From contig VFQY01000001.1 in NCBI GenBank assembly GCA_018883425.1, positions 432-64,431 of the forward strand: a stretch of 64,000 bases of DNA, read 5' to 3'. Both the position numbers and the translations under genes were made by a program. The notes below the pieces were generated by a model. It did no database searches and was not told the origin of the DNA. It worked only from the letters and a program-made list of their open reading frames with translations. Below, in pieces: positions 27,201 through 48,440 of the stretch (positions are counted from its first letter, which is position 1; the number at the start of each line of letters is the position of its first letter). This DNA is from Candidatus Omnitrophota bacterium. GTDB lineage: Bacteria; Omnitrophota; Omnitrophia; Omnitrophales; Aquincolibacteriaceae.

Positions 27201-27316
27201 ACGCTATCCTTGCGCAGGTTTTATGCCCTGCTGTTAAGCGGCAGGCGGAAGAAGTCCTTGTTATGACTGTGTCCCCCGCCCGCTCTCTGACCTTTTCTGA
27301 TGCGGTGAATGAAAAG

Positions 27317-27523
27317 CTATTTGCTCATCCGGCTCATGAGCCAGGCATCCAGGACATCTTTCTTGAACCGCCATTGACCGCCGATTTTTGTCGCAGGGAT
27401 CTCTTGTTTTTTGAGGAGTCGGTAGATTGTGACCAGATGAAACCCTAAATACTTCGCAGCTTCCTTTGGAGTCATGATTTGAGTTCTCTCGGGACGTTTC
27501 GGTGTATTCTTAGATTCTTCCAT
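27317..27523 (-). CDS. Small HTH DNA-binding protein, excisionase-family (HTH_17/MerR-like). Copy A, first gene of the main glycan operon
   Basis: MTPKEAAKYLGFHLVTIYRLLKKQEIPATKIGGQWRFKKDVLDAWL matches the excisionase-family HTH. Its paralog is at 30425-30682. Confidence 0.75.
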   Translation of the reverse strand: MEESKNTPKRPERTQIMTPKEAAKYLGFHLVTIYRLLKKQEIPATKIGGQWRFKKDVLDAWLMSRMSK

Positions 27524-27577
27524 GAATGGACCCCTTGATTTACTGTTTTTGCTTGTTTTAGTTATAATCTATTTCAA

Positions 27578-27606
27578 ATATTAATGTCATAATTATAAAT
27601 AGTCAA
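27578..27606 (-). promoter_or_regulatory. Putative sigma70 promoter of HTH copy A (minus strand TTGACT-N17-TAATAT)
   Basis: Read on the minus strand: TTGACT at 27606-27601, 17-nt spacer, TAATAT at 27583-27578. About 55 nt upstream of ATG 27523 with an AAGGGG RBS. Confidence 0.4.
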
Positions 27607-27609
27607 CTC

Positions 27610-27633
27610 TTGCTATTTATTTTTATATAGCAA
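27610..27633. promoter_or_regulatory. Perfect inverted repeat TTGCTAT-N10-ATAGCAA immediately upstream of the -35 of the HTH-A promoter (candidate operator/activator site). The spacer carries the shared TATTTATTTTTA motif
   Basis: 7-bp arms at 27610-27616 and 27627-27633, read directly from the sequence. Confidence 0.45.
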
Positions 27634-27681: not shown

Positions 27682-27713
27682 ATCCTTTTCTCGACCGCTT
27701 TTAGTGCTATAAT
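27682..27713 (+). promoter_or_regulatory. Putative extended -10 promoter (TGcTATAAT) for the secreted repeat-protein gene
   Basis: TGCTATAAT at 27705-27713, about 75 nt upstream of ATG 27790 (RBS AAAAGGAG). Confidence 0.4.
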
Positions 27714-27789: not shown

Positions 27790-28353
27790 ATGAAACTTCG
27801 TTCTGCCTTACTCGCTGTCATGCTTTGCATGACGCTCACGACCCCCCGCCTCCTGGCATCTGAGGATGTCTGGGATCTTGCTGAATCCGAGCAATATGGT
27901 AAGAAAAGCGCCGGCATGGTCGGCCGCGGTCTGATCAATGCCGCAACAAGCCCCGTTGACCTTGTCGTTCAGACTGTAGAAAGCACTCAGGAAGGACCTC
28001 CTTTTTTTGGAACCCTCACGGGGCTCTCTTCAGGCCTTGGCTGCACGGCGCTGCGTGCCTCTTCAGGCATTATGGATGTGGCGACTTTCTGGGTCCCTGG
28101 ATTTAACGGGTTCAAGGTGTCCCGCTCCTACTCGAACTGTCTGGAAGCCGAATACACGAAAGCCCGCTACACACCGGTTCGTGAACCGCAAACCCAAGTG
28201 ATTGAGCAGCCTCAGGTCGTGGTTGTTCAAGAGCCTGCCAAACCCGTTGTGGTGCAGGCTCCGAACCCTATGGACTATGTGAAGAAAGGCGATGCGCCTG
28301 ATCCGATGGCGTACGTTAAGAAGGGCTCCAACGAGAATTCTTACGTAAAATAG
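27790..28353 (+). CDS. Secreted hypothetical protein with signal peptide and C-terminal Pro/Val/Gln-rich region ending in YVKKG repeats
   Basis: MKLRSALLAVMLCMTLTTPRLLASEDV signal peptide. PQTQVIEQPQVVVVQEPAKPVVVQAPNPMDYVKKGDAPDPMAYVKKGSNENSYVK. RBS AAAAGGAGTG. Track ORF 27721 includes an upstream in-frame extension. Confidence 0.6.
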   Translation: MKLRSALLAVMLCMTLTTPRLLASEDVWDLAESEQYGKKSAGMVGRGLINAATSPVDLVVQTVESTQEGPPFFGTLTGLSSGLGCTALRASSGIMDVATFWVPGFNGFKVSRSYSNCLEAEYTKARYTPVREPQTQVIEQPQVVVVQEPAKPVVVQAPNPMDYVKKGDAPDPMAYVKKGSNENSYVK

Positions 28354-28380
28354 TTCCTGGCAAGTTTTTTTCAAAAAAAT

Positions 28381-28412
28381 AAAGCCGCTTGGACCTCATC
28401 CAAGCGGCTTTA
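28381..28412. terminator. Bidirectional Rho-independent terminator (AAAGCCGCTTGG-loop-CCAAGCGGCTTT flanked by A-run and T-run)
   Basis: 12-bp perfect stem followed by TATTTTTG on plus and preceded by TTTTTTTCAAAAAAAT. Sits between convergent genes. Confidence 0.7.
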
Positions 28413-28427
28413 TTTTTGCCTGCAAAC

Positions 28428-29207
28428 TTAAACTTTAACGATATACGCCCTATCCGGAAATTTAGGAACAATCGGTTTTTCAGCTTTATCCAGAAAGAAT
28501 TCATCTACAGCCTTTCGGGCTCCGGGCCATGCGGGGTCATCGTATTCATCAAAAACCATCACCGCTCCAGGATTCATTCTCGGATAAAAAAACTCCAGGC
28601 AAATCTGATAGGATTCGTACAAATCACAATCGAGAAAGACAAAGGCAAACCGCTCACTCGGCAAATGCCGGAGCGATTCCTCAAAAAAACCGGGGATCAC
28701 CTGGACGTCCTTCTCCAAGCCGAAGGCCCTGAGTTTACTCCTCACAAGGGCGATCGAGGTATTGCCGAATCCGCCGATGCTTTTCCTTGAGGACTTCTCT
28801 CCGGATTGATCAATTGCACTCATCACTGAATCATCAAAACCCGCAAAAGAATCAAACGCATAAATTCTTTTTGAGGGCATGATTTTTTTTGCCTGATAGG
28901 CAATAGGTATCAAAGAAGCGCCCTGGTAAACTCCGCATTCGGCGGCTGCTCCAGGCACGTTTCCCACGCGCCTCAGTTTTTCTAGAATGTGCGCCATTCT
29001 CCCCGGTTGCCCTGAAGGAAAAGGGACGTCGATTCCGCAAAGCTCACCGAACCAGCAAGGCCAATCGTGAACATCCTGAACACCCAAACAACGCAGAATC
29101 AATCGGCCCGCCCGCCAAAAAAAAGGGGCGAGCCCTGATTTACGGTAAATATATCGAACCTTGGGAGGGTTCATCTGGGGGGCACTATCGGGTTTTAAAG
29201 AAATCAT
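28428..29207 (-). CDS. TylF/MycF/NovP-family SAM-dependent sugar O-methyltransferase
   Basis: ECGVYQGASL, DSFAGF, FLDCDLYESY and VFDEYDDPAWPG motifs characteristic of macrocin-O-methyltransferase-like enzymes. Confidence 0.75.
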   Translation of the reverse strand: MISLKPDSAPQMNPPKVRYIYRKSGLAPFFWRAGRLILRCLGVQDVHDWPCWFGELCGIDVPFPSGQPGRMAHILEKLRRVGNVPGAAAECGVYQGASLIPIAYQAKKIMPSKRIYAFDSFAGFDDSVMSAIDQSGEKSSRKSIGGFGNTSIALVRSKLRAFGLEKDVQVIPGFFEESLRHLPSERFAFVFLDCDLYESYQICLEFFYPRMNPGAVMVFDEYDDPAWPGARKAVDEFFLDKAEKPIVPKFPDRAYIVKV

Positions 29208-30424: not shown

Positions 30425-30682
30425 TTACTGATTCATCCGGTTCATGAGCCAGGCATCCAGGACATCTTTCTTAAAACGCCATTGTCCGCCGATTTTCGTA
30501 GCGGGAATCTCCTGCTTCTTGAGAAGACGGTAGATGGTCACGAGGTGAAACCCGAGATATTTCGCAGCTTCCTTAGGCGTCATGATCTGGGTGCGCTGCC
30601 GCTGCTGCTGAGGCTGCTGTGAATCAGATTTATTCGTTTCCATAGTCTCTCGCCTGTTTAGAGTGGCTGGTTTTTTCCCCAA
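30425..30682 (-). CDS. Small HTH DNA-binding protein, excisionase-family (HTH_17). Copy B, first gene of the HTH-DegT-TylF sub-operon
   Basis: 50-aa core identical to copy A (TQIMTPKEAAKYLGFHLVTIYRLLKKQEIPATKIGGQWRFKKDVLDAWLM); distinct Gln-rich N-terminus. Confidence 0.75.
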   Translation of the reverse strand: MGKKPATLNRRETMETNKSDSQQPQQQRQRTQIMTPKEAAKYLGFHLVTIYRLLKKQEIPATKIGGQWRFKKDVLDAWLMNRMNQ

Positions 30683-30702: not shown

Positions 30703-30731
30703 ATCCTAGGCTTTTGACTATATCTTGTCAA
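30703..30731 (-). promoter_or_regulatory. Putative sigma70 promoter of HTH copy B (minus strand TTGACA-N17-TAGGAT). The -35 is part of inverted repeat TTGAC-N8-GTCAA (30714-30731)
   Basis: Read on the minus strand. The shared TATTTATTTTTA motif lies at about 30738-30750, just upstream. Confidence 0.4.
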
Positions 30732-30793
30732 GAATTGTTATTTATTTTTAGTCCGGAGCTCTTTTTAGTTGAATCCTGCAGAAATTTCCAATG

Positions 30794-46203: not shown

Positions 46204-46444
46204 TTACTTTTTTTCTTTCTGCTGCTCTAAAATTTTTTTTATCTGAAGCAAGGTATAGTTTTTGGTCTGAAGAATCTTGATTTGCTCGAGACGGTCAAAA
46301 ACGCCCTCGTCGTAAAGGCGATGCCCCGAGGCTGTTCTCCGCGCCTCCTGAATGAGACCCGTGAGGGTGTAGTTGTGAAGCGTCTGGCGGGAAAGCCCCG
46401 TGTACTGCATCACTTCGCCGATCTTGAAGAGTTTTTCTCTTTTC
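46204..46444 (-). CDS. MerR-family transcriptional regulator (short)
   Basis: LFKIGEVMQYTGLSRQTLHNYTLTGLIQEARRTASGHRLYDE HTH. GTG start likely near 46444. Confidence 0.6.
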
Positions 46445-47102
46445 ACGAGTTCAGCGCCTCTCTTTGTTTGATCTGTTCGTACTGTCTCGTAGCATCCTTG
46501 TCGCCCGGAGCGAGGAGCAGGATTTTTTCGACTGTCAGCTTTGCCGCGCCCCACTGCCCTGAATCCATCAGCTGTCCGGCTTTTTTCCGGTAACGCACGA
46601 TTCTTTCTCTGGCCTCATCGCGGTACATGCCCTTGAGAAAAACCTCATTCTGTTTGCCTTCCGCAAAGACTTGTTTGCGGATCTCATCCACTAACTCGGA
46701 GGCTTGCCGGTTCTCCGCGTCATAGGCAAAAACTTTTTCGGCAGTCACCATGGCCTCTTCGTACTGCTTTGCCCGGAACATTTCCCGGGAGCGTTCCAAC
46801 AGCGTTTTGATTTCTTCCTCGGATTCCGCCTGCGATTTTTCGAAGGGCCTCTCTTCGAAAGCTTCTTTCTGTTGAGCGATTTCCCGTTCAAGAATCGACG
46901 CCATGAGCTTCGACGCTTCTTCTTCCTGGGGAGATTGACGAAGGACTTGTTCGGTCAGCTTGCGGGCCTTGAAGTACTCGCCCTGGCGCATCGCGTCCTG
47001 TGCCTGCTGCCTGAGCTCAACAGGATCAGCAGCCCTCTGCCTGGAAACCGTCTGGCATCCGACCATCATGAACACAACTCCAAGGCTTATCGTTTTTTTC
47101 AT
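46443..47102 (-). CDS. Lipoprotein with TPR-like/coiled helical repeats
   Basis: Lipobox LGVVFMMVGC; Glu/Gln/Arg-rich helical repeats. Confidence 0.5.
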   Translation of the reverse strand: MKKTISLGVVFMMVGCQTVSRQRAADPVELRQQAQDAMRQGEYFKARKLTEQVLRQSPQEEEASKLMASILEREIAQQKEAFEERPFEKSQAESEEEIKTLLERSREMFRAKQYEEAMVTAEKVFAYDAENRQASELVDEIRKQVFAEGKQNEVFLKGMYRDEARERIVRYRKKAGQLMDSGQWGAAKLTVEKILLLAPGDKDATRQYEQIKQREALNS

Positions 47103-47319
47103 TTTATAATTTGTAGTTTACATTTTATAAATTACAATCTATAAAAAGTAATCGTACATGGTCAACATTTATTTACAACTTTTTTTAGCAAAATGTAGCA
47201 ATTGTGTATTTTTTTTAGGCGGGCACAATTAGTAGGGGGGCTTGCATCAAAAAAAAGTCTAAAGTTGAGGCTTGCGGTTTAAGAAATGGCGAGAGTTTTG
47301 GAAGGCTTTTCGAGTTTGG

Positions 47320-47351
47320 AGAAAAAAAAGCGCTCGATCACTCGAGCGCTT
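47320..47351 (-). terminator. Rho-independent terminator of accA (minus strand AGCGCTCGA-GTGA-TCGAGCGCT followed by TTTTTTTTCTC)
   Basis: 9-bp perfect stem read directly, with T-run on the minus strand. Confidence 0.6.
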
Positions 47352-47381
47352 GGAAAGCAAACTTAGGGTTTTTTTCGAAGT

Positions 47382-48440
47382 TTATCGGACGGTAAAGACC
47401 CCCATTTTCCGGAATTTTTCATACCTCTCCCCAGGGAGGTCCTTCCGGGGGATTTCAGCGAGTTCTTGAAACGCCGAATTGACTGTCGCCCGGATATTCT
47501 CGGCCGTGGCCTCAAAATCCCGATGAGCACCCCCCAGCGGCTCCCGAATCATGTCGTCAATGACGCCCAGTTCTTTGAGGTCGCGGGCTGTGAGCTTCAA
47601 GGCTCGGGCCGCGTCCTCTGAGCGGGAAGAATCCTTCCAGAGAATGGCCGCACAGCCTTCCGGCGAAATCACGGAGTAATACGCATTTTCCATGACGTAA
47701 ACCCGGTCGCCGACACCAATACCCAGCGCCCCTCCGCTTCCGCCCTCTCCAATGACAATCACCACGATGGGCACAGTCAAATCACCCATCTCGCGGAGGT
47801 TATAGGCGATCGCCTCAGCTTGTCCGCGCTCCTCTGCCCCGACGCCGGGGTAAGCCCCCGGAGTATCGACAAAACAGAGGATGGGCGTTGCGAACTTTTC
47901 CGCCAAACGCATGATGCGCATCGCTTTGCGGTAACCTTCGGGATGCGCACTTCCAAAGCTGCGCATAAGATTTTCTTTTGTGTCGCGTCCTTTCTGGTGA
48001 CCGATAACACAAATGGGCTTTCCCTGCCACTTCGCAAAACCGGCAACGATCGCGCGGTCGTCACTAAAGTGCCGGTCGCCGTGGAGCTCAACAAAATCTG
48101 TGGTGAGATACTGAATATAGTCCATCGTGTAGGGGCGCAGAGGGTGCCTTGCCACCTGAACTCTTTGCCAGGGCGTCAGGTTGTCGAAAATGTCTTTGAG
48201 CGCCTTCTCCATTTTCTTTTCCGCACTGCTGATCTCTCCGGAAAGATCGATGCCTTGAGCCGCAGAGGCACGCAGCTCATCAATTTTCTTCTCGAGTTCG
48301 ATCACGGGCCTTTCAAAAGAAAGACATGCCTCGGCCAGTTTGCGCGTGCCGAGCGTTCTGGGTTTTCGAACCGGCAGGACTTCGGTTTCTTGATTTTGTT
48401 TCTTTTTTTTACTCATGAGATCGGGATCCTTTTCGTTCAA
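47382..48440 (-). CDS. accA: Acetyl-CoA carboxylase carboxyltransferase alpha subunit
   Basis: VVIVIGEGGSGGALGIGVGDRVYVMENAYYSVISPEGCAAILWKD. Confidence 0.9.
   Translation of the reverse strand: MNEKDPDLMSKKKKQNQETEVLPVRKPRTLGTRKLAEACLSFERPVIELEKKIDELRASAAQGIDLSGEISSAEKKMEKALKDIFDNLTPWQRVQVARHPLRPYTMDYIQYLTTDFVELHGDRHFSDDRAIVAGFAKWQGKPICVIGHQKGRDTKENLMRSFGSAHPEGYRKAMRIMRLAEKFATPILCFVDTPGAYPGVGAEERGQAEAIAYNLREMGDLTVPIVVIVIGEGGSGGALGIGVGDRVYVMENAYYSVISPEGCAAILWKDSSRSEDAARALKLTARDLKELGVIDDMIREPLGGAHRDFEATAENIRATVNSAFQELAEIPRKDLPGERYEKFRKMGVFTVR

What the first reader, a model, noticed from the sequence alone, without database searches (positions are those of the whole stretch)
27578..27633. HTH-A promoter region: sigma70-like TTGACT-N17-TAATAT preceded by a perfect 7-bp inverted repeat (TTGCTAT-N10-ATAGCAA) whose spacer is a 12-nt motif shared with the HTH-B promoter
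Both HTH genes are preceded by unusually AT-rich intergenic DNA in a GC-rich genome. Upstream of HTH-A the inverted repeat sits where a class-I activator or repressor would bind. The same TATTTATTTTTA 12-mer recurs upstream of HTH-B (about 30738-30750), pointing to a common regulatory input to both operon heads.
Basis: seen in the sequence. Interest (0 to 1): 0.5.

Follow-up and report, generated by a model that had tools for sequence, protein, structure and literature searches.

The report
Conserved promoter of small Omnitrophota regulator

Summary
From 5' to 3' they are: TTGCTAT (27633..27627), N10, ATAGCAA (27616..27610), GAG, TTGACT (27606..27601), N17, TAATAT (27583..27578). The ATG of a 68-aa HTH_17 gene follows at 27523.

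Comparison with 80 Omnitrophota loci supports the promoter. The -35, the -10, the first 10 nt of the spacer and the promoter-proximal box TA(G/T/A)CAA, 3 nt upstream of the -35, keep the same register in about 50 species.

The 7-bp inverted repeat is neither significant nor conserved. Such a repeat appears in 47% of shuffles, and the distal arm is kept in 1 of 52 loci.

The shared 12-mer is the A-tract plus the first two bases of the box. It lies 7 nt from the -35 in both paralogous promoters.

Boxes are strongly orientation-specific (139 sense, 12 antisense, about 27 expected). They recur in the 5' leader and form 10-bp-period tandem arrays in distant relatives.

The protein folds as a stand-alone winged helix, closest to BldC, which binds direct repeats head-to-tail. 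In relatives it precedes a UpxY-type antiterminator and glycan genes.

Best reading: an autoregulated promoter with a direct-repeat operator. Binding and the transcription start are inferred, not shown.

The parts
27578..27583 (-). -10 hexamer TAATAT of the HTH-A promoter
   Evidence: TAnnnT occupies this register in 51 of 52 related promoters. This count is partly circular, because the hexamers were used to anchor the alignment.
27584..27600 (-). 17-nt spacer. Its 5' half (ATTTATAATT, 27600..27591) matches the family-conserved aTTTATAgTA element.
   Evidence: Mean pairwise identity is 0.75 for the first 10 spacer nt and 0.36 for the rest.
27601..27606 (-). -35 hexamer TTGACT
   Evidence: TTGAC is present in 50 of 52 related promoters.
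27610..27616 (-). Promoter-proximal box ATAGCAA (about -45..-39).
   Evidence: TA[GTA]CAA sits at this register in 46 of 52 loci, and mean identity is 0.85. The composite box-N3-TTGA[CT] occurs 52 times upstream of HTH genes and 4 times elsewhere in 446 kb.
27614..27625 (-). It is the A-tract (about -54..-45) plus the first two bases of the box.
   Evidence: The near clade has the consensus TATAaaAATaaaTA.CAA. Matches of 10/12 or better occur in 10 of 52 loci.
27627..27633 (+). It is lineage-specific.
   Evidence: Kept in 1 of 52 loci. Identity at this position is 0.35, which is background.
27524..27571 (-). Predicted 5' leader. The start is inferred near 27570-27574. It carries box-like ATAACTA (27565..27559) and AAGCAA (27554..27549), and the RBS AAGGGG.
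   Evidence: The -10 to ATG distance is 54-62 nt in most loci. A leader box TAGCAA lies at a fixed position in 25 of 54 loci. No consensus RNA structure was found.
27317..27523 (-). HTH-A gene: a 68-aa stand-alone winged helix (HTH_17)
   Evidence: Pfam PF12728 at 66 bits and TIGR01764 at 64 bits. The AF2 model has pLDDT 83. The best PDB fold matches are BldC and RdfS.
30703..30750 (-). Paralogous HTH-B promoter: 12-mer 30750..30739, box TAACAA 30740..30735, -35 TTGACA 30731..30726, -10 TAGGAT 30708..30703
   Evidence: It has the same register as HTH-A.
30425..30642 (-). HTH-B gene (72 aa). Its C-terminal 53 residues are 94% identical to HTH-A.

Best explanation
The interval is the core of a sigma70-type promoter for a 68-aa stand-alone winged-helix protein (HTH_17, of the BldC/Xis type). 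The gene heads a surface-glycan gene cluster in an Omnitrophota bacterium.

On the gene strand the order is:
- A-tract TAAAAATAAA (about -54..-45)
- box TAGCAA (-44..-39)
- GAG
- TTGACT (-35)
- a 17-nt spacer that begins ATTTATAA
- TAATAT (-10)
- a start near 27570-27574
- an unstructured A/C-rich leader of about 50 nt
- the ATG at 27523

The A-tract plus TAGCAA unit is an orientation-specific operator. It abuts the -35 and has weaker box-like copies in the spacer and the leader. In relatives it recurs in the leader, and in distant relatives it forms tandem copies 10 bp apart.

The most likely binder is the winged-helix protein itself or its paralogue, binding head-to-tail on one face of the helix as BldC does. 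The wing would sit in the A-tract minor groove and a conserved arginine would read the TpG step opposite CAA. Occupying the -35, spacer and leader would repress both paralogous promoters, giving negative autoregulation and a common input to HTH-A and HTH-B.

Shown: the sequence features, their conservation, the orientation bias, the phasing and the fold similarity. Inferred: the transcription start, who binds, and the sign of regulation.
For: Promoter:
- The hexamers and the 17-nt spacing are present.
- The same register holds in about 50 species: TTGAC in 50 of 52 and TAnnnT in 51 of 52.
- The footprint is sharp. Mean pairwise identity is 0.93 for the -35, 0.85 for the box, 0.75 for the 5' spacer and 0.68 for the -10, against 0.35-0.40 for the flanks.

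Box specificity:
- TAGCAA occurs 8 times in the 64-kb window, with about 17 expected. Four of those lie in the two lowest-GC intergenic regions.
- In 446 kb of related loci, 91 of 165 same-strand TAGCAA copies lie within 200 nt upstream of the HTH start.
- TA[GT]CAA is found 139 times in sense and 12 times in antisense, against 27 +/- 5 expected.
- Density is 7.1 per kb upstream and 0.45 per kb elsewhere. Spacings peak at 10, 20, 30, 60 and 72 bp.
- Tandem arrays with a 10-bp period occur in L068, L069, L072, L074, L077 and L078.
- Box 1 and the leader box share the extended consensus AAAA(a/c)TAGCAA.
- The leader has no consensus RNA structure, and Rfam has no match in the promoter region.

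Protein:
- The AF2 model is a winged helix with pLDDT 83.
- The top Foldseek PDB matches are BldC-DNA complexes 6ama and 6amk and the excisionase RdfS 8dgl.
- hhalign against BldC gives probability 89.6% and E 1.9e-6. BldC R30, K33, L43 and R48 align to R35, K38, I47 and R52.
- BldC binds direct repeats AATTxxxx(C) head-to-tail, using Arg30 on a YpG step and its wing in the AT-rich minor groove (PMC5859096).
- All box variants (TAGCAA, TATCAA, TAACAA) keep CAA, so the opposite strand keeps a TpG step. This is read directly from the sequences.
Against: - There are no transcription-start or binding data.
- The similarity to BldC is remote: 24% identity, Foldseek E 0.012, and no significant hit in sequence searches of the PDB.
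- The A-tract may be a generic UP-like element. AAATAAAT occurs five times in the window, always on the minus strand in intergenic DNA, including three promoters unrelated to the HTH genes.
- A different factor that reads direct repeats could bind the boxes.
- In some syntenic relatives the box is degenerate (ATAACT in L083).
- HTH-A itself has one strong box. Its spacer and leader copies are weak.
- A metagenome scan for triple arrays returned 120 stretches, none next to an HTH_17 or UpxY gene.
- Many of the 80 loci are related, so the counts are not independent events.
Confidence: 0.5

Rival explanations
1. One reading: a symmetric dimeric activator or repressor binds the palindrome TTGCTAT-N10-ATAGCAA, centred near -50.
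For: The 7-bp repeat is perfect. The nearest relative keeps a 5-bp core, TGCTA...TAGCA (L003). The DNA hairpin is slightly better than shuffles: -4.6 kcal/mol, z -2.2.
Against: Such a repeat arises in 47% of shuffles of this AT-rich region. The distal arm is conserved in 1 of 52 loci, and any inverted partner of the box is found in 1 of 52. Identity at the distal position is background. The antisense box is not enriched: 12 against 139. HTH-B has no second arm.
Confidence: 0.08
2. No dedicated regulator is involved. The A-tract is an UP element contacted by the RNA polymerase alpha subunit, and the TAGCAA and spacer motifs are promoter-strength elements of a very strong constitutive promoter for an abundant, nucleoid-protein-like factor.
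For: The A-rich tract lies at about -54..-45, where UP elements lie (established knowledge of rrnB P1). AAATAAAT recurs upstream of other minus-strand genes in the window. The -35 is near-consensus and the protein is almost invariant across the phylum, as expected for a highly expressed core factor.
Against: The best-conserved positions of the upstream element are the G and C of TAGCAA, not the A/T run: identity is 0.85 for the box and 0.52 for the A-tract. The same box recurs downstream of the predicted start, and as 10-bp tandem arrays far upstream of the -35 in distant relatives. UP elements do not show these patterns. The box-N3-TTGA composite is essentially restricted to HTH gene promoters.
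Confidence: 0.17
3. A different transcription factor that reads direct repeats binds the TAGCAA boxes and controls the HTH genes. One candidate is an OmpR/PhoB-type response regulator, whose sites are 6-7-bp direct repeats about 10-11 bp apart next to the -35.
For: Direct repeats with a 10-bp period adjacent to the -35 are the classical architecture of OmpR/PhoB-family sites (established knowledge). The arrays are seen. A TAGCAA-N4-TAGCAA pair also lies upstream of an unrelated operon at 47186-47201.
Against: Within about 450 kb of neighbourhoods, box clusters occur almost only at HTH gene promoters. This is the signature of autoregulation rather than of a regulon-wide factor. No response-regulator gene is conserved next to the loci. 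The HTH protein has the fold and key residues of a known direct-repeat binder.
Confidence: 0.17
4. Chance low-complexity similarity in AT-rich intergenic DNA with no function.
For: The inverted repeat alone is not significant. AT-rich DNA readily yields repeats, and five imperfect inverted pairs are present in 800 nt.
Against: The footprint is conserved in register across about 50 species. The 12-mer sits in the same register in both paralogous promoters.
Confidence: 0.03

Closest known systems
BldC and its target promoters (whiI, smeA-ssfA) in Streptomyces
   Same: Both are 68-residue stand-alone MerR-like winged helices. BldC is the best structural match. The key Arg, Lys, hydrophobic and wing Arg residues align. 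BldC sites are same-orientation repeats, each made of an AT-rich segment and a C/G 4 bp downstream. The Omnitrophota unit AAAA-nTAG-C fits this pattern.
   Different: Identity is only 24%. The phylum differs. The repeat period here is 10 bp (and 20, 72 bp), against 9 bp for AATTxxxxC. Binding is untested here. The gene sits at glycan loci, often with a UpxY antiterminator, rather than in a developmental regulon.
Excisionases / recombination directionality factors (lambda Xis, Pukovnik Xis, RdfS)
   Same: The fold and domain models are the same (TIGR01764 at 64 bits; 8dgl and 4j2n). These proteins also oligomerise on direct repeats.
   Different: There is no integrase or mobile element nearby. 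The chromosomal synteny RsmB, SpoU, PRTase, HTH-B, sugar enzyme, HTH-A, glycan genes is conserved across species.
Bacteroides capsule loci controlled by UpxY/UpxZ and invertible promoters
   Same: In 26 of 80 relatives the HTH gene is immediately followed by a UpxY-family NusG paralogue (NF033644 at 154 bits, cutoff 100) and then glycan genes. UpxY function is described in PMC11685472.
   Different: No UpxZ is present. No long inverted repeats flank the promoter and there is no invertase. A small HTH occupies the first position. The window's own locus lacks UpxY.
UP element of strong sigma70 promoters (rrnB P1)
   Same: An A-rich tract lies at about -54..-45, immediately upstream of the -35.
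   Different: The most conserved positions are the G and C of TAGCAA. The element recurs downstream of the start and in phased arrays.
OmpR/PhoB-type direct-repeat operators
   Same: Hexamer direct repeats about 10 bp apart lie next to the -35.
   Different: The -35 is intact and near-consensus. No response regulator is linked to the loci. The boxes are largely confined to the HTH genes' own promoters.

Membership tests
sigma70-type promoter | -35 and -10 hexamers close to TTGACA/TATAAT, 17 +/- 1 nt apart, upstream of a gene | tested here: met
   TTGACT-N17-TAATAT matches 9 of 12 positions and lies 54 nt from the ATG.
sigma70-type promoter | Conservation of the hexamers in register in orthologous and paralogous loci | tested here: met
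   TTGAC in 50 of 52 and TAnnnT in 51 of 52 loci. Identity is 0.93 and 0.68 against 0.36 for the flanks. This is partly circular, because the hexamers were used for anchoring.
sigma70-type promoter | Mapped transcription start 6-8 nt downstream of the -10 | not testable with these tools
   No transcript data. The organism is an uncultured metagenomic Omnitrophota bacterium.
BldC-like stand-alone winged-helix regulators | Small protein consisting only of a MerR-type winged helix, with no coiled coil or effector domain | tested here: met
   68 aa. The topology is beta, H19-26, H30-38, beta-hairpin 45-54, H55-67. HTH_17 is the only Pfam domain.
BldC-like stand-alone winged-helix regulators | Structural similarity to BldC | tested here: met
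   Foldseek rank 1 is 6ama_Y (probability 1.00, TM 0.59/0.67, rmsd 2.5). 6amk also matches. E is only 0.012 because the domain is small.
BldC-like stand-alone winged-helix regulators | Recognition-helix Arg (BldC R30) and the hydrophobic head-to-tail contact residue (BldC L43) conserved | tested here: met
   hhalign gives probability 89.6%. R30 aligns to invariant R35, L43 to I47 and R48 to invariant R52.
BldC-like stand-alone winged-helix regulators | Targets are same-orientation repeats, not palindromes | tested here: inconclusive
   The candidate sites are direct and phased: 139 sense against 12 antisense, with a spacing peak at 10 bp. That this protein binds them is not shown.
Classical MerR regulator and MerR-type promoter | C-terminal coiled-coil dimerisation and effector domain, and a palindromic operator inside a 19-20-bp spacer | tested here: not met
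   The protein ends at residue 68. The spacer is 17 nt.
Excisionase / recombination directionality factor | Domain match to excisionase models | tested here: met
   TIGR01764 at 64 bits, cutoff 28.8.
Excisionase / recombination directionality factor | Encoded in a mobile element next to an integrase | tested here: not met
   The neighbours are an ABC exporter, an epimerase, glycosyltransferases, a DegT aminotransferase, a TylF methyltransferase and a PRTase. The same synteny is found in other species.
   Present in 47% of shuffles. The distal arm is kept in 1 of 52 loci.
UP element | A/T-rich tract between -40 and -60 that needs no specific G/C | tested here: inconclusive
   The A-tract is present and modestly conserved (0.52). 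The strongest conservation is at the G/C of the box (0.85). An effect on RNA polymerase cannot be tested here.
Bacteroides-type invertible capsule promoter | Long inverted repeats flanking the promoter, plus a UpxY/UpxZ pair | tested here: not met
   Only short imperfect AT-rich inverted pairs occur near the promoter (I1, I4 and I5, 10-14 nt). No UpxY is present in the window, though UpxY follows the HTH gene in 26 of 80 relatives.

The most novel reading that the evidence does not exclude
Omnitrophota may have a phylum-wide, almost invariant BldC-like winged-helix protein, in two or more paralogues per genome. It would autoregulate through helically phased direct repeats. Together with a UpxY-type antiterminator encoded right after it, it would act as the master switch of surface-glycan loci. 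That would be an undescribed control module, analogous to but built differently from the Bacteroides UpxY/UpxZ invertible-promoter system.
Probability: 0.25. Interest if true: 0.6.

Novelty: new member of a known kind. Interest (0 to 1): 0.42.

Why it matters
Omnitrophota are uncultured, often ultra-small and possibly host-dependent bacteria, and almost nothing is known about their gene regulation.

This analysis supplies three things:
- a comparative picture of an Omnitrophota sigma70-type promoter;
- a candidate operator motif, A-tract plus TA(G/T)CAA, in direct orientation and 10-bp phased;
- a candidate regulator, a BldC-like 68-aa winged helix that sits at the head of cell-surface glycan clusters, usually with a UpxY antiterminator.

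If the protein binds these boxes, BldC-type head-to-tail recognition of direct repeats would extend well outside actinomycetes. It would also give a concrete handle on how these bacteria control their surface. The claim can be tested with a synthetic gene and a 100-bp probe, without culturing the organism.

Tried and rejected
- Sequence searches of the PDB with the single protein and with a profile gave nothing significant. The best hit was the Pukovnik Xis at E 0.86, so fold comparison was needed.
- Rfam at a permissive threshold gave no match in either promoter. The only weak hits lie at 28307-28496, between convergent genes.
- RNAalifold on 21 leaders predicted zero pairs, so an RNA element was rejected.
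- The inverted repeat as a hairpin or terminator is weak (-4.6 kcal/mol, AT-rich stem, no T-run) and was rejected.
- An invertible promoter was rejected, because no long flanking inverted repeats exist.
None encodes an HTH_17 or UpxY relative, so the scan is uninformative about a regulon.
- The exact-sequence look-up of the 219-aa lipoprotein next to the second TAGCAA pair found nothing.
- Two antisense box-plus-(-35) composites in L023 and L046 have no convincing gene downstream.
- The window has no tRNA genes that could serve as reference promoters.
- Literature searches found no description of an HTH_17-UpxY module or of Omnitrophota promoters.

Full report
**Observation**

HTH-A is 27523..27317 (68 aa). 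HTH-B is 30642..30425 (72 aa), and its last 53 residues are 94% identical to HTH-A. Both are single-domain HTH_17 proteins (PF12728, 66 bits each).

Read on the gene strand, the flagged interval contains, in order:
- TTGCTAT (27633..27627)
- ATAAAAATAA
- ATAGCAA (27616..27610)
- GAG
- TTGACT (27606..27601)
- a 17-nt spacer
- TAATAT (27583..27578)

The ATG lies 54 nt further on. The 12-mer is exact at 27614-27625 and 30739-30750, and these are the only two copies in the window.

- The window is 53% G+C, not GC-rich. The HTH-A intergenic region is nevertheless one of the two lowest-GC spots (24%).
- The 12-mer overlaps the proximal arm. It is not simply the spacer of the repeat.
- A perfect 7-bp inverted repeat is expected in 47% of shuffles of this AT-rich region.

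The shared 12-mer is less likely by chance (P about 0.01). It lies exactly 7 nt upstream of a TTGAC(T/A) hexamer in both promoters. HTH-B has TTGACA-N17-TAGGAT at 30731..30703.

**Source and relatives**

The exact HTH-A protein is encoded on a 173-kb metagenome contig, and its close homologues carry Candidatus Omnitrophica/Omnitrophota labels. The protein family is remarkably conserved. There were 420 database hits. Eighty genome loci from species-level representatives share 59-96% identity with HTH-A. The core RTQIMTPKEAAKYLGFHLVTIYRLLKK.EIPATKIGGQWRFKKDVLDAWL is nearly invariant among the closer relatives, and 24 columns are invariant even in a sample that includes the distant ones. Several genomes carry two or more copies.

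**Phylogenetic footprint**

I anchored the 200 nt upstream of each gene on its best -35/-10 pair. Fifty-four promoters, including the two in the window, then share the same architecture.

Among the 52 loci from other genomes:

| Feature | Loci with the feature |
|---|---|
| TTGAC at the -35 | 50 of 52 |
| TAnnnT at the -10 | 51 of 52 |
| TA[GTA]CAA exactly 3 nt upstream of the -35 | 46 of 52 |
| ATAGCAA at 6/7 or better | 44 of 52 |
| Any inverted partner of the box | 1 of 52 |
| 12-mer at 10/12 or better (near clade only) | 10 of 52 |

Mean pairwise identity over 43 non-redundant promoters:

| Segment | Mean identity |
|---|---|
| -35 | 0.93 |
| Box | 0.85 |
| First 10 spacer nt (aTTTATAgTA) | 0.75 |
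| -10 | 0.68 |
| A-tract | 0.52 |
| Position of the distal arm | 0.35 |
| Flanks | about 0.36 |

The promoter call and the proximal arm are therefore strongly supported. The palindrome is not.

The exact 12/12 identity between the two paralogous promoters is specific to this lineage. In the closest other species the two tracts are TAAAAATAACTA and TAATAATTCATA.

**The box is directional, repeated and phased**

- TAGCAA is under-represented in the window: 8 copies on both strands, about 17 expected. Four of the eight lie in the two lowest-GC intergenic regions.
- In 446 kb of related loci, 91 of 165 same-strand copies fall within the 200 nt upstream of the HTH start. Only 6 opposite-strand copies fall there.
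- For TA[GT]CAA in 78 upstream regions there are 139 sense and 12 antisense copies, with 27 +/- 5 expected.
- 69 of 78 loci have at least one box, 48 have at least two and 20 have at least three.
- The composite box-N3-TTGA[CT] occurs 52 times upstream of HTH genes and 4 times elsewhere. Two of those four are promoters of further HTH paralogues.
- Boxes sit at fixed positions. They lie at -9 and +63 relative to the first base of the -35 (30 and 25 of 54 loci). TAGC also lies at +42, and TAG at +11, +23 and +35.
- The upstream box and the leader box share the extended consensus AAAA(a/c)TAGCAA.
- Box-to-box spacings peak at 10, 20, 30, 60 and 72 bp.
- Distant relatives carry tandem arrays such as TAGCAAtttaTAGCAAtataTAGCAA (L078), TATCAAtactTATCAAtagcTATCAA (L074) and TATCAAtcttTAGCAAtcttTATCAA (L077).
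- The leader has no consensus RNA structure and Rfam has no match in the promoter region. The conservation is best read at the DNA level.

**The protein**

The AlphaFold2 model (pLDDT 83) is a three-helix winged helix with a beta-hairpin wing. The best PDB matches are the BldC-DNA complexes 6ama and 6amk and the excisionase RdfS. The DNA-binding domains of SoxR, NmlR, RacA and Xis follow.

A profile of the family aligns to BldC with 89.6% probability. The alignment puts invariant R35 on BldC R30, K38 on K33, I47 on L43 and R52 on R48.

BldC has no dimerisation or effector domain. It binds direct repeats AATTxxxx(C) head-to-tail. Its wing sits in the narrowed AT-rich minor groove, and Arg30 reads a YpG step (PMC5859096).

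The Omnitrophota unit is an A-tract with a conserved C four to five bases after it. All variants keep CAA, and therefore a TpG step on the other strand. This fits that mode of recognition. It is a resemblance, not a demonstration.

The protein is not a classical MerR. It has no coiled coil and the promoter spacer is 17 nt. It is also not an excisionase in context. There is no integrase nearby, and the synteny RsmB, SpoU methylase, PRTase, HTH-B, sugar-modifying enzyme, exosortase-associated-like gene on the opposite strand, HTH-A, glycan genes is conserved in other species.

**Genomic role**

In the window, HTH-A precedes an ABC exporter, an NAD-dependent epimerase and glycosyltransferases. 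HTH-B precedes a DegT aminotransferase and a TylF-type methyltransferase.

In 26 of 80 relatives, including the syntenic loci L083 and L085, the HTH gene is followed immediately by a NusG paralogue. This paralogue passes the NCBIfam UpxY antiterminator model (154 bits, cutoff 100). The window has no UpxY.

UpxY proteins head capsule operons in Bacteroides (PMC11685472). The long flanking inverted repeats that invertible Bacteroides promoters have are absent here.

**Most likely mechanism**

This is a sigma70-type promoter whose -35 region, spacer and leader carry same-orientation, helically phased A-tract plus TA(G/T)CAA units. The parsimonious binder is the HTH protein itself or its paralogue, for three reasons:
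- Box clusters in about 450 kb of neighbourhoods are almost confined to the HTH genes' own promoters.
- The protein has the fold and key residues of a direct-repeat binder.
- Both paralogous promoters carry the element in the same register.

Because the sites overlap the -35, the spacer and the early transcribed region, repression is the more likely sign. This step is inferred.

I rate the promoter at about 0.85, the box as a protein-binding site at about 0.65, and autoregulation by the HTH at about 0.45-0.5.

**Rivals**

- The A-tract may be a generic UP-like element. AAATAAAT occurs five times in the window, all intergenic and all on the minus strand.
- Another factor that reads direct repeats may bind the boxes. 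A second TAGCAA-N4-TAGCAA pair lies upstream of an unrelated operon at 47186-47201.

**Verdict**

The finding is real and functional as a promoter. The shared 12-mer is the visible tip of a family-wide promoter and operator design.

It is a new member of a known kind: an autoregulated small winged-helix regulator with a direct-repeat operator. It has some added interest because of its phylum-wide conservation and its pairing with UpxY at glycan loci.

Noticed in passing
window 47103-47381 (boxes at 47186-47191 and 47196-47201, + strand): This is the other lowest-GC spot of the window (24%). It carries TAGCAA-aatg-TAGCAA, a direct pair with a 10-bp period. The pair lies about 20 nt upstream of a TTGACC-N18-TAGATT promoter-like site for the minus-strand operon lipoprotein (46443-47102), MerR-like protein, FliA-type sigma factor. 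The boxes are inverted relative to that operon. It may be a second target of the same factor.
   Followed up: partly
window 27201-27316, compared with L083 10900-11454 and L085 9176-9739: Syntenic relatives have a UpxY-family NusG paralogue between HTH-A and the glycan genes. The window has only a 115-nt gap and no UpxY anywhere in its 64 kb, so the gene was apparently lost cleanly.
   Followed up: partly
window 27790-28353 (+), promoter-like TGcTATAAT at 27705-27713: The divergent gene encodes a secreted 187-aa protein. It resembles the exosortase-system-associated TIGR04073 family (47 bits, just under the cutoff of 50). It has an extended -10 without a recognisable -35.
   Followed up: no
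It is made of the box region and the conserved 5' spacer element, and it is only partly kept in the near clade.
   Followed up: partly
window 24244, 27622, 30747, 37002, 47174 (minus strand): AAATAAAT occurs five times in 64 kb, always on the minus strand in intergenic DNA upstream of minus-strand genes. It may be a generic UP-like A-tract of this organism's promoters.
   Followed up: partly
L003-L082 (HTH_17 genes): The 50-residue core of this small protein is nearly invariant among the closer relatives, and 24 positions stay invariant across the phylum sample (59-96% identity overall). Two or more paralogues per genome are common. That degree of conservation is unusual for a transcription factor and resembles that of a nucleoid-associated protein.
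   Followed up: partly
window 28307-28496: Weak sub-threshold Rfam hits (trpB motif, Qrr, RcsR1, Thr leader) pile up between the convergent genes 27790-28353 (+) and 28428-29207 (-). This is most likely a bidirectional terminator hairpin, not an sRNA.
   Followed up: no
window 47316-47350: GCGCTCGA-tcac-TCGAGCGC is preceded by A8 on the + strand. On the minus strand this reads as a textbook intrinsic terminator with a T8 tail, placed after accA (47382-48440).
   Followed up: no
L083 10400-10584 and 7840-8001: In this relative both paralogous promoters carry ATAACT instead of TAGCAA/TAACAA at the box position, while the HTH proteins keep the same recognition helix. This is within-genome co-variation of the two boxes, from gene conversion or a shared constraint.
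   Followed up: no
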